64,000 nt of DNA from an uncultured Armatimonadetes bacterium (lineage in GTDB: Bacteria; Armatimonadota; UBA5829; DTJY01). The first letter of the stretch is position 1, and each line of letters starts with the position of its first letter. The stretch is from contig OY970325.1 of NCBI GenBank assembly GCA_963717145.1, positions 2,944,001-3,008,000 of the forward strand, written 5' to 3'. The notes below the pieces were generated by a model, which saw only the letters and a program-made list of their open reading frames with translations, ran no database searches and was not told the DNA's origin. Made by a program: the position numbers and the translations under genes. Of the stretch, positions 8,862 through 13,564 are shown piece by piece.

Positions 8862-9914
8862 TTACTTCAGCACCATCTGCGCGAGATTGAGCGCGTCCGA
8901 GATGACCTCGATCGCCTGCTCCTCGCTCGTCTTGTAGCCTTCCCCGGCCGCGACCTGGCGCACGACGACCACATCCACGTCCGGCTGATCCTCGATCTCC
9001 GCGATCGAGCCGGCGAACTGCTTCTCCGCGAGTTCCTTCTGATCAGCAGCCGACTTGAGGAACCCAAGCAGGCCCCCACCCTCGCCGCCTTCGAGATACG
9101 GCGCGGCCTTCGTCTTTAGCCCAAAAGCCTTTTTCGCCAGAATCACCGCATAGGCATACGGGTGCTTCGTGCCCTGGACATCGTTCAGGGATATCTGCAC
9201 CTGCACGCCCATGAAGTCCTTCGGCGCATCCTTGAACTTGATCATCAGGCGGGCGTCGGTCGGGACGGCGCGATCGTCCTTCGCCTGCACGTACAAGCTC
9301 GGGAGGAACTCGAGTTCGGGCTGCGACTTATACCGCGTGTAGACGTCCAGCAGGTACCGCGCTTTCCTCGGCAGTTCCGGCGGCTCCCGCGCACCGAGTG
9401 ATCCGGCGAACCAGATGGGAAGGAACAGCGTGAACACGTCGAGCGCCCAGATCGGTGCGACGAACCCGCCTCGGAGCGGTGGAACGAACGCCATGCTGAG
9501 CACGCTGAACAGATCCTGCGCGCGGTCGATGAAGACGGCGATCAGGCCCGCTGAGACGCCGACGAACAGCAGGCCGAGCATCGTCATGGCACAGCCGCCG
9601 CCGGATGTCGCTCGGAAGGCGTTCGTCCGCTCGCGCCAGTTCTTTATTCTAATCGAGAGCTTCTCGATCTGCTCGAGTTCCTCGATGGTGGTGGTCGACC
9701 AGTCGCCCTTCCCGCCGACCTCCGGCTCGGTACTCTTGCTTCGGATGATGCCGAGCAGGCATCCGGCCAGAAAGACGAGCCATCCCAGGAACACGGAGAC
9801 CGTGAGTTGGATAGCGAATCCCGCCAGCAGCAGGCCCGCGATCCATCCGAGCCTCGTCCCCATCGGCATGCTCGACGCTATGGCGAATTGCAGCTTATCA
9901 GTCTTCTCAGCCAT
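8862..9914 (-). CDS. hypothetical multi-pass membrane protein
   Basis: About 350 aa with ~4 hydrophobic segments and a soluble C-terminal domain; co-oriented directly downstream of the radical SAM gene. Confidence 0.8.
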   Translation of the reverse strand: MAEKTDKLQFAIASSMPMGTRLGWIAGLLLAGFAIQLTVSVFLGWLVFLAGCLLGIIRSKSTEPEVGGKGDWSTTTIEELEQIEKLSIRIKNWRERTNAFRATSGGGCAMTMLGLLFVGVSAGLIAVFIDRAQDLFSVLSMAFVPPLRGGFVAPIWALDVFTLFLPIWFAGSLGAREPPELPRKARYLLDVYTRYKSQPELEFLPSLYVQAKDDRAVPTDARLMIKFKDAPKDFMGVQVQISLNDVQGTKHPYAYAVILAKKAFGLKTKAAPYLEGGEGGGLLGFLKSAADQKELAEKQFAGSIAEIEDQPDVDVVVVRQVAAGEGYKTSEEQAIEVISDALNLAQMVLK

Positions 9915-9928
9915 GGCAGTTCCATTTG

Positions 9929-10030
9929 GAACACAGATCACACAGATTGCAGAGGATGAATCGGATGTTTATTCATCCTCTAAGCATTCCATCTGTGTTA
10001 TCTGTGCCCCATCTGTTTCATCTGTGTTCA
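9929..10030. repeat. inverted short-repeat hairpin (ACACAGAT / ATCTGTGT) overlapping rSAM 3' end
   Basis: aacacagatcacacagat...agaggatgaat / attcatcctct...atctgtgttatctgtg. Confidence 0.75.
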
Positions 10031-11479: not shown

Positions 11480-13114
11480 TCAATGTGCACCTCCGCTGAC
11501 GCAGGCCGAGTGGCAGGCGGAATGGCAGGCGGAATGACACGCCGAGTGGCACGCCGAATGACACGCATCATGGCAGGCGTCGTGGCACGCGGTATGGACG
11601 AAGCACGCGGAATGGCACGCGTCCGATCTGATCGATGCCGCCGATGCCATTCCCTTTTCGGGCATCTGCTTGCCGATGCCCTTCTCGACATCGTTCTCCT
11701 GTCCCTGCGATGCCCCGTAGAAATAGTGCGGATAGTAGCTCGAGTAGCTGTGCCCCCAGGAGTCATATGTCCCGACGCCCGTCCGCTGAGCCACCTCGAA
11801 CTGCGCCTTGATCTGGTTGCGGTAGAACTCCTTTGTCGCGTCGAGGTCGCAGTCCCAGCACTTCGTCTGCACGTTGTCGGCGATGTGGTCGATGATCGCC
11901 TTGAGTTCGCCGTCGTCGAGCTTGCCCTCGTCCCGGACCGCGTTCCACATCATGTCCTCATAGAGCTTATCCGGCAGCACCCCGATCGGATAGAGCCGCT
12001 CGACCCGCAGCGGATCGTTCGAGATGATCTTGAAGAGCCCCCTGCGCTCCAATTCGAGCACGATGGCGGCGAGGATCTTGTTCGCCGGGATATCGAGCAG
12101 GAACGCGGCCTCGATGGGATGGAGGTCGCCGACCTTGCCCTTCTGCCGGAAGCTGCTAACCTTGATCTTCGGCGGCACCCAGTCCGTCCGGTCCCAACGG
12201 ATGCCGTCCATCTCCTCCGCCGCGGCCGAGTAATCGGAGTACTTCTTCTTAACGAGAGCCACCGCCACCCAGACCAGTCCGATCGCGAGCAGGAACGCGA
12301 TCACCAACCGGCTCGGGTCTTGTTGAATCCGAACGTGGGGCGATTCACCGGGTTGACTCGGCTCCTGACCGCCGGGAATGAGCGGCTCGGACGCCTTCAG
12401 TTTCAGGTTCGGGAAGAACTTGGCGATCACGTAGGTCTGGATGCGCATATGGTACTGAGTCGGCACATCCTTCTTGTGGAAGCGGACGGTCAGCCAGCTC
12501 TTGCCCTGATACGGCTGCCCGTAGTAGCTGATGAGGTACTGCTTGTTGACGAACTCCTCGGTGCGGAATCCGACATCTTTCAGGCGCTGATCGGTAACCT
12601 TCTCGCCGACGACCTCGATCGGGTAGTGGAGGTAGACCGTCTCATGCTCCAGCGGCTGATCCCACTGGACGGGGGCCCAATTGAAGACGACGAGCTTCCC
12701 GAACTCGCTCTCGGTGTAGTCGAGCATCCCCGCGCCCGCGAGGTCTGTCGTGTAGAGGACGATGTAGGTCACCTCACCGGGACCCGCCGCCGCGCCGTTT
12801 GCCAGAACGATATCGTACTTCCCGCTCTCCACGGGGCTGATGGACAGCCCATACTTCCGCCCGCGCGCATCGAAGGCGTACGACTTGTCGCTCGAGAACG
12901 TCGGATAGGCGCGGTCGAAGCCCTCGAAGTAGAAGCCGTGCATCTGCCCGCTGTTCACCTGCCACCGGATCTTGTAGACGACATCGGCGAACCCGTTCCC
13001 GTGCGGCGAGACGTCGACCTCGACCCACTTCATCCGGGCGTCAGCGGCCCGCGCCGGCGACAGGATGCCGAGCAGGAGGACCATGGCTATCAGATATGGT
13101 ATCAGTCTGCGCAT
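11480..13114 (-). CDS. signal-peptide single-pass membrane protein (DUF2207-like layout) with C-terminal (HxAC)n Cys/His repeat tail
   Basis: Signal peptide, ~240-aa exported domain, TM [22 protein letters not shown], cytoplasmic helical region, then [21 protein letters not shown](HSAC)5VSGGAH. Confidence 0.85.
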   Translation of the reverse strand: [544 protein letters not shown]

Positions 13115-13174
13115 GTGCCTATGTGCCGACCCGTCGGACGCGTCTGACCTGTCTGATCCGTCGGACAGGACTGC

Positions 13175-13564
13175 TCACTCCTTCGCGCTTTCCGTCCGCG
13201 CCCGGAGCAGGTCCGCCTGAGAGAGGATGTACTGCGCAAAGTTGCCCTTCGCCTCGGCCCACTCGCTCTCGTCGGGGAACGTGCGGACGATCCCCTGCCA
13301 GATGACCTCATACGCCCGCTCGAGGCAGACCTTCCCGTCGCCCGAACCGGTGTACTCGAAGACCGCCTTGATGTCCGTCGGCCTGAAGACCGGCGTCGGC
13401 CCGGAGTACACCTCGGTCGCCGCCCCGAGGAACTTCACGCCGATCTCCTGCAACACATCGATGTGCTCCCTGATCGCCGTCAGTACCGTCGCGATCGAGT
13501 AATCCGCCGATGAGAAGCGGATCTCGAGCGACTTGTCCTTGATCTCGCCGAATGGCATGTTCAT
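13175..13564 (-). CDS. hypothetical protein, first gene of the rSAM operon
   Basis: 129-aa ORF with strong AGGAGG RBS and GC3-rich codon usage. Confidence 0.75.
   Translation of the reverse strand: MNMPFGEIKDKSLEIRFSSADYSIATVLTAIREHIDVLQEIGVKFLGAATEVYSGPTPVFRPTDIKAVFEYTGSGDGKVCLERAYEVIWQGIVRTFPDESEWAEAKGNFAQYILSQADLLRARTESAKE

What the first reader, a model, noticed from the sequence alone, without database searches (positions are those of the whole stretch)
8862..13564. Candidate new system: RRE-radical SAM/SPASM enzyme paired with a membrane protein bearing a (His-x-Ala-Cys)n precursor-like tail
Seen: a tight co-oriented unit of a 129-aa hypothetical, a 544-aa protein (signal peptide, exported domain, TM, cytoplasmic domain, 10-Cys tail), an rSAM starting 5 nt downstream with a PqqD-like N-terminus and full SPASM Cys set, and a 4-TM hypothetical. 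No small precursor ORF is evident. Known: RRE-rSAM/SPASM enzymes modify peptides, and Cys-every-fourth-residue repeats are recognised rSAM targets, normally on short precursors. Inference: the substrate is the cytoplasmic tail of a full-size membrane protein. This would be either a membrane-tethered RiPP precursor released by proteolysis, or post-translational crosslinking of a receptor-like protein.
Basis: partly seen in the sequence, partly recalled or inferred. Interest (0 to 1): 0.9.

Follow-up and report, generated by a model that had tools for sequence, protein, structure and literature searches.

The report
Radical SAM enzyme for membrane-protein tail
A membrane protein that ends in a near-invariant ladder of His-x-Ala-Cys units is always encoded next to its own radical SAM enzyme, which points to an untested chemical modification made on a full-size protein rather than on a small peptide.

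Summary
On the minus strand lie a 129-aa ORF, a 544-aa DUF2207-like single-pass membrane protein ending in a 10-Cys (His-x-Ala-Cys)n tail, a radical SAM/SPASM gene starting 5 nt later, and a 359-aa four-helix membrane protein. All 78 related loci with a complete 3' end keep the tail, and all 78 with downstream DNA have the orthologous rSAM next to it. In 301 genomes of the window's phylum, the same 21 genomes hold both genes. The third gene follows in 75 of 80 loci. The 129-aa gene is lineage-specific (9 of 80), and the neighbouring M3 peptidase is not part of the unit (0 of 80). The window's genome has no other ladder-coding sequence, so there is no separate precursor. No protease or exporter is conserved, and His, Ala and Cys are fixed in 626, 628 and 628 of 628 units. 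I therefore favour in-place modification of the cytoplasmic tail over a released RiPP. The chemistry is unknown: thioether links are my first guess, and HaaB-type His-Ala cyclophanes a new alternative. No paper was found. This scan has met the cassette before on other DNA. Specific to this window, the rSAM gene carries two in-frame palindromic insertions.

The parts
11480..13114 (-). 544-aa DUF2207-like single-pass membrane protein. Signal peptide aa 1-23 (13046-13114); exported beta-sandwich domain aa 25-240 (12395-13042); TM aa 270-288 (12251-12307); cytoplasmic domain aa 325-495 (11630-12142); Cys/His ladder tail.
   Evidence: ORF. (model, mean pLDDT 82.2). (N-domain versus ribophorin I/Ost1: Z 15.6, rmsd 2.8, 176 aligned; M1 aminopeptidase N-domain: Z 14.1). 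(PF09972 DUF2207, 21.5 bits against cut-off 24.4). (cytoplasmic part resembles DUF2207 clusters, 0.93). (20 protein homologues; 383 species).
11483..11623 (-). The tail, aa 498-544: (His-x-Ala-Cys) ladder with 10 Cys, ending ACVSGGAH. It is the inferred substrate. It is preceded by a conserved [FY]xxF[RIM]xS-type segment that could be the recognition sequence.
   Evidence: Invariant C/H/A columns in 74 sequences. 78 of 78 complete homologues keep it. Of 628 units, 626 have His, 628 Ala and 628 Cys. The upstream motif is visible.
9969..11474 (-). 501-aa radical SAM/SPASM enzyme. PqqD-like N-domain about aa 22-112 (11139-11411); CX3CX2C aa 143-150 (11025-11048); SPASM Cys set aa 387-469 (10068-10316).
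   Evidence: Pfam. (76 NCBIfam hits, none reaching its cut-off). (invariant C143, C147, C150, C387, C401, C419, C456, C459, C465, C469). (PF05402 in 31 of 53 orthologous N-domains). (closest solved: SkfB 114 bits, PqqE 97, SuiB 81).
8862..9941 (-). 359-aa membrane protein with four membrane helices and a cytoplasmic C-terminal domain (aa 187-359, 8865-9383). Third conserved gene of the cassette. The first roughly 11 residues are not conserved, so the true start may lie downstream.
   Evidence: homologue in 75 of 80 loci. (pLDDT 88.8, pTM 0.81). (no Foldseek match at E<=1e-3). (C-domain resembles type III secretion chaperones/YbjN: Z 5.2-6.5, weak).
13175..13564 (-). 129-aa protein of no known family. 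Accessory, lineage-specific upstream gene.
   Evidence: 9 of 80 loci. (no family). (no Atlas hit).
10893..10985 (.). 93-nt palindromic repeat element inserted exactly in frame (aa 164-194) in the loop after the radical SAM cluster motif.
   Evidence: I3: 46-nt arms, 91% complementary. (-90.2 kcal/mol, z -11.2). (53 matches on both strands, about 28 sites in the genome). (17 of 19 aligned orthologues lack an insert here). (codon register).
11413..11472 (-). Perfect 22-bp hairpin encoding aa 1-21 of the rSAM. In the mRNA it pairs the AUG, and an outer stem pairs the GGAGG upstream of it.
   Evidence: I4. (-65.6 kcal/mol, z -6.8; the AUG lies in the stem). (orthologue matches start at query residues 21-26 in most loci).

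Best explanation
This is a three-gene maturation cassette. The 544-aa protein is exported through its signal peptide and keeps a ribophorin-like beta-sandwich domain outside the cell. It crosses the membrane once and exposes a folded domain plus the (His-x-Ala-Cys)n tail in the cytoplasm (topology inferred). The rSAM/SPASM enzyme, translated by coupling 5 nt behind the tail codons, docks through its PqqD-like N-domain. The likely docking site is the conserved segment just before the ladder. The enzyme then modifies each ladder unit by radical chemistry (inferred). The mechanism I commit to is thioether cross-links from each Cys sulfur to a carbon of a neighbouring residue, sactionine or ranthionine type, giving a rigid stapled ladder (about 0.4 of the weight). 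The second choice is HaaB-type His-C2 to Ala-Cbeta cyclophanes on each H-x-A triad, which would leave the thiols free for metal binding (about 0.25). The modified tail stays on the membrane protein as a built-in structural, metal-binding or redox element. The four-helix third protein, whose cytoplasmic domain resembles peptide-holding chaperones, is its membrane partner (weakly inferred). What is shown: gene order, conservation, co-occurrence and domain content. What is inferred: substrate identity, chemistry, retention of the tail and physiological role.
For: The rSAM lies immediately downstream in 78 of 78 loci that have downstream DNA, and the tail is present in 78 of 78 complete homologues. 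In 301 genomes of the phylum, the 21 with the membrane protein are exactly the 21 with an rSAM hit of 248 bits or more, and the two genes share a contig in 20 of those 21. The tail is the best conserved part of the protein. Of 628 units, 626 have His, 628 Ala and 628 Cys, and position x is small or polar. Only one ladder-coding site exists in the own genome, with 0 control hits. The enzyme has the full radical SAM and SPASM Cys sets and a PqqD-like N-domain at family level (31 of 53, best E 2e-5). The closest solved enzyme is the thioether synthase SkfB (114 bits). Nothing beyond the three genes is conserved: the commonest further neighbour is in 16 of 80 loci, and no protease or exporter recurs. 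The M3 peptidase occurs in 0 of 80 loci. A divergent subfamily with a different tail ending (...ACVSSCVSSF) still has the rSAM next to it, once behind an FMN-reductase-like gene. In one further locus a 139-aa ladder protein of another family lies among four other rSAM/SPASM genes, so the ladder is the common denominator. HaaB precedent for His-C2 to Ala-Cbeta links on an H-A-A motif: PMC11499958, passages read.
Against: There are no biochemical data of any kind. The window's own N-domain does not reach any PqqD threshold (15.3 bits against cut-off 46; 0 Pfam families). The rSAM reaches no NCBIfam cut-off and falls in no characterised thioether or cyclophane family, so the chemistry cannot be read from homology. 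A Cys/His ladder could bind metals without any modification, and that alone could explain its conservation. The window's rSAM has a 31-aa repeat-element insertion beside the cluster motif and a 20-aa hairpin-encoded N-terminal extension, so this copy could be impaired. Two orthologues in the phylum sample carry an internal stop (G094, G150). The chaperone-like assignment of the third protein rests on Z 5.2-6.5, below the level the tool calls reliable.
Confidence: 0.6

Rival explanations
1. The tail is a membrane-tethered precursor. After modification it is cut off and released, either as a RiPP or as a small redox or metal-binding cofactor, in the way PQQ and mycofactocin are carved from conserved peptides.
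For: The enzyme class (RRE plus rSAM/SPASM) is typical of RiPP and peptide-cofactor pathways. PqqE and the mycofactocin maturase are among its better NCBIfam and PDB hits. Strong conservation of the modified residues is also seen in cofactor precursors (established knowledge, recalled). An M3 oligoendopeptidase gene lies next to the cassette in this window.
Against: The M3 peptidase is found in 0 of 80 related loci. No protease, exporter or immunity gene recurs beyond 16 of 80 loci. The ladder is fused to a roughly 500-aa conserved protein in every complete homologue. The shorter hits of the same family are mostly on short contigs and read as fragments.
Confidence: 0.2
2. The ladder is an unmodified metal- or iron-sulfur-binding tail. 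The rSAM works on something else, or only receives or donates clusters. The gene linkage reflects a shared metal or redox function rather than an enzyme-substrate pair.
For: Cys every fourth residue with an adjacent His would line one face of a helix, and the model does predict a helix, at low confidence. NifU- and NifS-like genes follow the cassette in 11 and 12 of 80 loci. The best NCBIfam hits of the rSAM are tetrapyrrole-modifying enzymes (AhbD 136 bits, NirJ2 135 bits), all far below their cut-offs.
Against: The NifU/NifS neighbours are confined to loci labelled Elusimicrobia or unlabelled kin, so they look like lineage synteny. A PqqD-like peptide-recognition domain on the enzyme argues for a peptide substrate. 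Ala is as invariant as Cys and His (628 of 628), which metal binding alone does not explain.
Confidence: 0.12
3. The cassette in this particular genome is decaying. The rSAM has been hit twice by palindromic elements and may no longer be active, even if the family is functional elsewhere.
For: A 93-nt repeat element lies inside the gene next to CX3CX2C, and a 60-nt perfect hairpin covers the first 21 codons and pairs the AUG and the ribosome-binding site. 17 of 19 aligned orthologues lack the first insert.
Against: Both insertions are exactly in frame and add no stop. All catalytic Cys are intact. The closest relative (L001) also tolerates an unrelated insert of about 35-40 aa in the same loop. 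The four ORFs are all open.
Confidence: 0.15

Closest known systems
Cys-Xaa-Xaa-Xaa repeat radical SAM target proteins (NCBIfam TIGR04117 'Syntroph_Cxxx'). The precomputed Pfam label PF27846 appears on three of the 20 homologues, and earlier scan notes link it to this repeat.
   Same: Cys at every fourth residue near the C-terminus, predicted to be modified by a neighbouring radical SAM enzyme. It is the only family that the tail touches.
   Different: TIGR04117 is a 98-position model of small paralogous proteins. The tail scores 18.1 bits against a cut-off of 50. Here the repeat is the strict H-x-A-C unit, and it is fused to a roughly 500-aa exported, membrane-spanning protein. No experimental work on either was found.
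Sactipeptide and ranthipeptide synthases (SkfB, CteB, PapB) with their Cys-rich precursors
   Same: rSAM enzymes with auxiliary clusters and an RRE that link Cys sulfur to backbone or side-chain carbons. SkfB is the best solved match (114 bits), and CteB also matches (60 bits).
   Different: Their substrates are short leader-core peptides that are cleaved and exported. No member family's cut-off is reached (StsB 69 bits against 625). This cassette has no protease or exporter.
Triceptide (three-residue cyclophane) synthases, especially HaaB
   Same: HaaB links His1-C2 to Ala3-Cbeta on an H-A-A motif (PMC11499958, passages). Every ladder unit here contains an H-x-A triad with invariant His and Ala.
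   Different: No cyclophane-forming family is among the 25 best of the 76 NCBIfam hits. In triceptide precursors no Cys follows the triad. This is a resemblance of motif only.
QhpD/QhpC and the anaerobic sulfatase-maturating enzyme (rSAM/SPASM enzymes whose products stay in a protein)
   Same: These are precedents for SPASM enzymes that modify Cys in a polypeptide that remains part of a functional protein (established knowledge, recalled). anSME is a distant solved match (63 bits).
   Different: The anSME target motif (C/S-x-P/A-x-R, recalled) is absent from the tail. Neither TIGR03906 nor TIGR03942 is among the 25 best hits. Those substrates are soluble or periplasmic enzymes, not a membrane protein's cytoplasmic tail.
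DUF2207 membrane proteins (PF09972 / PF20990)
   Same: The architecture is the same: signal peptide, beta-sandwich ectodomain, membrane span and cytoplasmic region. Three of the 20 homologues carry PF09972 in the precomputed table.
   Different: The window protein is below the Pfam cut-off (21.5 against 24.4 bits). The ladder tail and the linked rSAM define a distinct subfamily. DUF2207 itself has no known function.

Membership tests
Radical SAM superfamily (PF04055) | CX3CX2C motif binding the SAM-cleaving [4Fe-4S] cluster; TIM-barrel core | tested here: met
   PF04055 at 97.3 bits against cut-off 29.5. C143, C147 and C150 are invariant in 74 sequences.
SPASM subgroup (PF13186 / TIGR04085) | C-terminal seven-Cys motif for two auxiliary [4Fe-4S] clusters (CX9-15GX4C ... 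CX2CX5CX3C ... C) | tested here: met
   PF13186 at 42.2 bits against cut-off 21.5. C387, C401, C419, C456, C459, C465 and C469 are invariant, C404 is conserved in at least 90%, and G414-x4-C419 is present.
RRE / PqqD-like peptide-recognition domain (PF05402) | N-terminal winged-helix domain with a three-stranded sheet that binds a leader segment | tested here: inconclusive
   For the window's own N-domain: no Pfam hit at E<=10 or E<=1, and TIGR03859 at 15.3 bits against cut-off 46. For the family: PF05402 in 31 of 53 orthologous N-domains at E<=1, best 2e-5, and TfuB1 at E 0.13. No structure of the enzyme was predicted.
TIGR04117 Cxxx-repeat radical SAM target protein | Small protein (98-position model) with a C-terminal Cxxx repeat, scoring at least 50 bits | tested here: not met
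   18.1 bits for the last 69 aa and 11.8 bits for the last 46 aa. The host protein is 544 aa.
RiPP biosynthetic gene cluster | Short precursor with leader and core; leader peptidase and/or exporter in the cluster; variable core | tested here: not met
   The precursor is a 544-aa membrane protein. There is no other ladder-coding site in the genome. No protease or transporter is conserved. The ladder is near-invariant.
Sactipeptide/ranthipeptide maturases (e.g. NF045574 StsB, NF047865 PapB, TIGR03974 SCIFF maturase) | Score above the family cut-off; demonstrated Cys-S to carbon link | tested here: not met
   StsB at 69.2 bits against 625. PapB and the SCIFF maturase are not among the 25 best of 76 hits. 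The chemistry cannot be tested here.
Cyclophane-forming triceptide synthases (XyeB, GrrM, FxsB, YhhB, HaaB) | Enzyme family membership; aromatic1-X2-X3 motif in the substrate | tested here: inconclusive
   The substrate motif H-x-A is present in 626 of 628 units. No such enzyme family is in the 25 best NCBIfam hits shown, and the other 51 hits were not listed.
DUF2207 (PF09972) | N-terminal domain scoring at or above the gathering cut-off | tested here: inconclusive
   21.5 bits against 24.4 on aa 1-305 and no hit on the full length at E<=0.01. P0006, P0013 and P0014 carry PF09972 in the precomputed table. The Atlas places the cytoplasmic part beside DUF2207 clusters at 0.93.
Type III secretion chaperone / YbjN-like fold (third protein, C-domain) | Alpha-beta-beta-beta-alpha-beta-beta-alpha fold that binds extended polypeptides | tested here: inconclusive
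   VIA-align gives Z 6.5 (1xkp_B, rmsd 3.8, 113 aligned), 6.2 (2xga_A), 6.0 (4jmf_B) and 5.8 (1jyo_A). All are under the Z 8 that the tool names as a caution line. Best Foldseek E-value is 8.9e-3.

The most novel reading that the evidence does not exclude
The cassette builds a protein-derived cofactor directly on a membrane protein. A dedicated radical SAM enzyme converts the cytoplasmic (His-x-Ala-Cys)n tail of a receptor-like DUF2207 protein into a cross-linked metal-binding or redox-active ladder, which couples an extracellular beta-sandwich domain to a cytoplasmic chemical element. This would be a kind of in-place maturation of a full-size membrane protein with no described counterpart. 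It would have several tail 'dialects' (VSGGAH, VSSGH, VSSF, AGGWG, GSRGWR endings), which would imply a wider hidden family.
Probability: 0.35. Interest if true: 0.9.

Novelty: new variant of a known kind. Interest (0 to 1): 0.75.

Why it matters
RRE-bearing rSAM/SPASM enzymes are studied almost only as makers of small secreted peptides. Here the same enzyme type is strictly tied to the tail of a roughly 550-aa membrane protein, in at least 383 species of many mostly uncultured phyla. The target sequence is conserved almost residue for residue. If the tail is modified and retained, post-translational radical chemistry would extend to integral membrane proteins. It would also give the large DUF2207 family its first functional handle and probably reveal new cross-link or metal-site chemistry. 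The system is small (two or three genes) and suits a direct co-expression and mass-spectrometry test.

Tried and rejected
1. Complex prediction of the rSAM with tail residues 455-544, three 4Fe-4S clusters and SAM gave 'no answer' (score 0.14, mark 0.32). This is no evidence either way.
2. The look-up of sequencing runs listed no RNA holder, and the five DNA runs each held only 5-9% of the sampled words.
3. The Rfam matches at the long palindromes are miRNA-precursor models, all below gathering score, so they are hairpin artefacts.
4. The promoter and terminator scans gave no more sites than shuffles did.
5. PHROGs gave no family for the three non-enzyme proteins. The Atlas gave nothing for the 129-aa protein. 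Foldseek found no PDB match at E<=1e-3 for the 359-aa model.
6. The whole-model VIA search of the 544-aa protein was filled by the N-domain. The cytoplasmic domain got only Z 6.0 and 5.3 to GOLPH3/Vps74, so it remains effectively untested.
7. The 129-aa protein shows no alignment to the 185-aa upstream gene of the Elusimicrobia-type loci.
8. The M3 peptidase as cassette protease is rejected (0 of 80 loci).
9. NifU/NifS linkage is lineage-restricted.
10. I considered overlapping C-x3-C-H motifs as c-type haem sites. I set this aside because the tail is predicted to be cytoplasmic and no haem-attachment genes are linked. This is reasoning only.
11. L001's insert in the rSAM loop is not related to the window's palindrome.
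12. Literature searches: 'DUF2207' with 'radical SAM' gave 0 papers. 'Cxxx repeat' with 'radical SAM' gave 0. PF27846 / TIGR04117 / Syntroph_Cxxx gave 0. The four-term search gave one irrelevant paper. In PMC9062424 the word search found nothing relevant.
13. The 2011 Haft and Basu paper on rSAM target peptides is recalled only. It is not held and was not read.

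
Full report
**What is in the window**

Four co-oriented minus-strand ORFs fill 8862-13564:
- a 129-aa protein (13175-13564);
- a 544-aa protein (11480-13114);
- a radical SAM gene whose only workable start is the ATG at 11474, 5 nt after the TGA of the 544-aa gene;
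- a 359-aa protein (8862-9941).

The 544-aa protein ends in [47 protein letters not shown], which holds 10 of its 12 Cys. The 12-nt DNA repeats are only 69-83% identical to each other and differ at synonymous sites. The periodicity is therefore kept at the protein level and is not a recent DNA expansion.

The enzyme has Pfam Radical_SAM (97.3 bits) and SPASM (42.2 bits). It has 76 NCBIfam hits, and none reaches its cut-off. The best are AhbD at 136 bits against 500, NirJ2 at 135 and PqqE at 110. Neither the 129-aa, the 544-aa nor the 359-aa protein matches any Pfam, NCBIfam or PHROGs family at the default thresholds.

**Anatomy of the membrane protein**

I predicted a model from 74 aligned sequences (mean pLDDT 82.2). 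It shows:
- an N-terminal helix, aa 5-17, read from the sequence as a Sec signal peptide ending ARA/AD;
- a beta-sandwich domain, aa 25-240, pLDDT above 90;
- one long helix, aa 267-302, containing the hydrophobic stretch aa 270-288;
- a folded domain, aa 325-495;
- a low-confidence helical tail.

The ectodomain matches ribophorin I/Ost1 (Z 15.6, rmsd 2.8, 176 aligned) and the N-domain of M1 aminopeptidases (Z 14.1). It comes close to the DUF2207 Pfam cut-off (21.5 against 24.4 bits). The cytoplasmic part resembles DUF2207 clusters in the Atlas (0.93). Five K/R follow the membrane span and two precede it (read from the sequence). The tail should therefore be cytoplasmic, in the same compartment as the enzyme. 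This topology is inferred.

**Is the tail real and conserved?**

A word-based search found 20 homologues, and the full-length ones (34-75% identity) keep the tail. A scan of one genome per species found relatives in 383 species. The best 80 loci carry labels from Armatimonadota, Elusimicrobiota, Omnitrophota, Planctomycetota, Hydrogenedentota, Sumerlaeota, Acidobacteriota, Nitrospiraceae, Calditrichaceae and others.

Of these 80 loci, 78 have a complete 3' end and all 78 end in the ladder. The other two (L022, L072) run off their contigs. I analysed 87 tails: the window, 77 loci (L010 was left out because of masked bases) and nine database proteins. Of their 628 units, 626 have His; the two exceptions are Pro, both in P0001. 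All 628 have Ala, and all 628 have Cys (Cys by construction of the walk). Position x is Ser 434, Asp 117, Gly 72, Asn 3, Ala 1 and Thr 1. The tail columns are the invariant core of the 74-sequence alignment. A conserved [FY]xxF[RIM]xS-type segment precedes the ladder.

**Co-occurrence with the enzyme**

tblastn over the 80 loci finds the orthologous rSAM directly downstream in 78. The remaining two end at the membrane gene. The 359-aa protein has a homologue in 75 of 80 loci. The 129-aa protein is in 9 of 80, the M3 peptidase in 0 and the PGI-like gene in 1.

I also ran the test in the opposite direction. In 301 genomes sampled from the window's phylum, the membrane protein matches in 21: 15 at 330 bits or more, and 6 at 67-110 bits. 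The 21 genomes with an rSAM hit of 248 bits or more are exactly the same 21. The two genes share a contig in 20 of them; in G235 they lie on different contigs. The next rSAM hits (191 bits or less) lie in 26 genomes without the membrane protein. Within the window's own family only 1 of 7 other genomes has the cassette, so it is patchy and accessory.

In the window's complete 5.37-Mb genome, the coding pattern for (CHxA)2CH occurs only in this gene, with 0 hits for the control pattern. The best rSAM paralogue scores 155 bits. Hence there is no separate short precursor.

**What else belongs to the unit**

I clustered all ORFs of the 80 loci. Only the three genes are widely shared. The next real cluster is in 16 loci and is an ABC-F-type ATPase; another 16-locus cluster consists of antisense ORFs over the cassette. 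No protease or exporter recurs. NifU-like and NifS-like genes follow the cassette in 11 and 12 loci, all of the Elusimicrobia type, which looks like lineage synteny.

The six weaker membrane-protein hits belong to a divergent subfamily. Five of them were fetched (G235 was not): their tails read [18 protein letters not shown][SD]ACHSAC..., three ending ...ACVSSCVSS/NF and two ...ACVSSF. The rSAM is still adjacent, in two loci behind an FMN-reductase-like gene. The third gene there is a different 390-aa protein. The minimal invariant pair is therefore the ladder protein plus the rSAM.

**The enzyme**

In 74 orthologues, C143, C147 and C150 (CX3CX2C) are invariant. So are C387, C401, C419, C456, C459, C465 and C469, and C404 is conserved in at least 90%. 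G414-x4-C419 is present. This is a full SPASM set.

The N-terminal ~110 residues are conserved (W26, R41, I48, P51, N58). The window's own domain gets only sub-threshold PqqD hits (TIGR03859 at 15.3 bits against 46; no Pfam hit). However, PF05402 is hit by 31 of 53 orthologous N-domains at E<=1, best 2e-5. A profile search of the PDB touches the lasso-peptide RRE TfuB1 at E 0.13. I take the RRE as probable at family level.

By profile, the closest solved enzymes are SkfB (114 bits), PqqE (97), SuiB (81), anSME (63) and CteB (60).

**The third protein**

Its model is confident (pLDDT 88.8, pTM 0.81). It has four membrane helices and a C-terminal domain at aa 187-359. Foldseek finds nothing at E<=1e-3. 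VIA-align repeatedly lists type III secretion chaperones and YbjN-like proteins at Z 5.2-6.5. That is below the caution line the tool itself names. A peptide-holding role is a lead, not a finding.

**Mechanism**

Conservation and linkage make the tail the enzyme's substrate with high likelihood; this is inference. Three features fit in-place maturation of the protein better than a released RiPP:
- no protease or exporter is conserved;
- the ladder is near-invariant;
- the ladder is always fused to a conserved ~500-aa body.

For the chemistry I commit to thioether links from Cys. The reasons are that Cys is invariant, that Cys-periodic targets are the classic rSAM/SPASM case, and that SkfB is the closest solved enzyme.

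Each unit holds an H-x-A triad with invariant His and Ala, and the triceptide synthase HaaB links His1-C2 to Ala3-Cbeta on an H-A-A motif (PMC11499958, passages read). That reading would explain why Ala is as fixed as Cys and His, and it would leave a row of free thiols. No cyclophane-forming family is among the 25 NCBIfam hits shown. This is therefore a 'works like' proposal, not a claim of membership.

**The ladder elsewhere**

I searched a profile of the tail against 1.84 billion representative proteins. It finds 71 at E<=1e-3 and 20 at E<=1e-10. Of the 57 newly listed proteins, 22 carry three or more HxAC units. Most are 440-970-aa proteins with the ladder at the C-terminus. Several endings occur: VSGGAH-type, VSKF, AGGWG, and one with a (Cys-Ala) run.

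A separate family of 117-229-aa proteins has a signal-like N-terminus and ends ...CHGSCHGSRGWR. The one locus recovered for it (L099) places the 139-aa protein among four other rSAM/SPASM genes, all below family cut-offs. That is a single context, but it shows the ladder beside rSAM enzymes of another lineage.

The tail touches only TIGR04117, the 'Cys-Xaa-Xaa-Xaa repeat radical SAM target protein', at 18.1 bits against a cut-off of 50.

**Features specific to this window**

The rSAM gene holds a 93-nt palindrome (10893-10985). It sits exactly in frame, encodes aa 164-194, and lies just after the cluster motif. It belongs to a repeat family with 53 matches on both strands, at about 28 sites in the genome. 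Of 19 aligned orthologues, 17 lack any insert there. L001 and L049 have unrelated inserts.

A perfect 22-bp hairpin (11413-11472) encodes aa 1-21, which are not conserved in orthologues. In the mRNA it pairs the AUG, and an outer stem pairs the GGAGG that lies inside the tail's last codons (-65.6 kcal/mol, z -6.8). Translation of the enzyme in this genome would then depend on ribosomes finishing the tail. This is inferred.

A different ~115-nt palindrome family flanks the M3 peptidase gene (6810-6928 and 8730-8843; 80 matches listed).

**Known or new**

No paper was found with the searches. The 2011 TIGRFAMs paper on rSAM targets is recalled but was not seen.

This scan has met the same cassette before on other DNA (at least eleven notes). 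Those notes gave me the TIGR04117/PF27846 lead, which I tested. Their co-occurrence claims agree with my own counts.

I class the finding as a new variant of a known kind: an RRE-rSAM/SPASM maturase with a Cys-repeat target, where the target is the tail of a full-size membrane protein. It is unconfirmed by experiment.

Noticed in passing
window 10893-10985: A 93-nt near-perfect palindrome of a genome-wide repeat family (about 28 sites) is inserted exactly in frame in the rSAM gene. It adds 31 residues after the CX3CX2C motif. This resembles the in-frame palindromic elements known from Rickettsia (recalled).
   Followed up: partly
window 11413-11472: A perfect 22-bp hairpin forms the first 21 codons of the rSAM gene. 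Folded as RNA it pairs the start codon, and an outer stem pairs the GGAGG upstream (-65.6 kcal/mol). This suggests translation strictly coupled to the upstream tail.
   Followed up: partly
window 6810-6928 and 8730-8843: Two copies of a ~115-nt palindromic element (52-53-nt arms, 96-100% complementary) bracket the M3 oligoendopeptidase gene. The family gives 80 listed matches in the genome. Rfam miRNA-model hits at these sites are hairpin artefacts.
   Followed up: partly
window about 55328-55417 (G000:C1:2999328-2999417): Another copy of the 93-nt palindrome family lies elsewhere in the window (89% identity). Its gene context was not examined.
   Followed up: no
L099:4935-5420 with rSAM genes at 1528-2739, 2654-3901, 3889-5004 and 6159-7283: A 139-aa protein with a signal-like N-terminus and a ...NCHxACHxAC...CHGSRGWR ladder sits among four rSAM/SPASM genes of the anSME/DynA-like kind, none above any family cut-off. 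This is a second, apparently undescribed ladder system. Only one locus was recovered.
   Followed up: partly
L094-L098 (handles G243, G149, G054, G194, G271): A divergent subfamily of the cassette. The tail has VH[SD]AC insertions and ends ...ACVSSCVSS/NF (L096-L098) or ...ACVSSF (L094, L095). A different 390-aa third gene follows in three loci. In two loci an FMN-reductase-like gene lies between the membrane gene and the rSAM.
   Followed up: partly
G094:C82:9850-10737 and G150:C1:1152693-1153457: Two orthologous rSAM genes in the phylum sample carry one internal stop each (TAG and TGA). They may be pseudogenes, sequencing errors or recoding. I did not look further.
   Followed up: no
window 13740-15548 (+): A 602-aa protein matches only the C-terminal, phosphoglucose-isomerase part (profile positions 391-941) of the bifunctional transaldolase/PGI model, at 642 bits against a cut-off of 712. 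It is transcribed divergently from the cassette and is shared only with the closest relative, L001.
   Followed up: no
P0050 (587 aa) and P0054, P0065, P0068 (507-967 aa): Further large proteins end in HxAC ladders with other endings: ...CVSCACACACAGGGW and ...[13 protein letters not shown]. None has a Pfam family. Their gene neighbourhoods were not examined.
   Followed up: no
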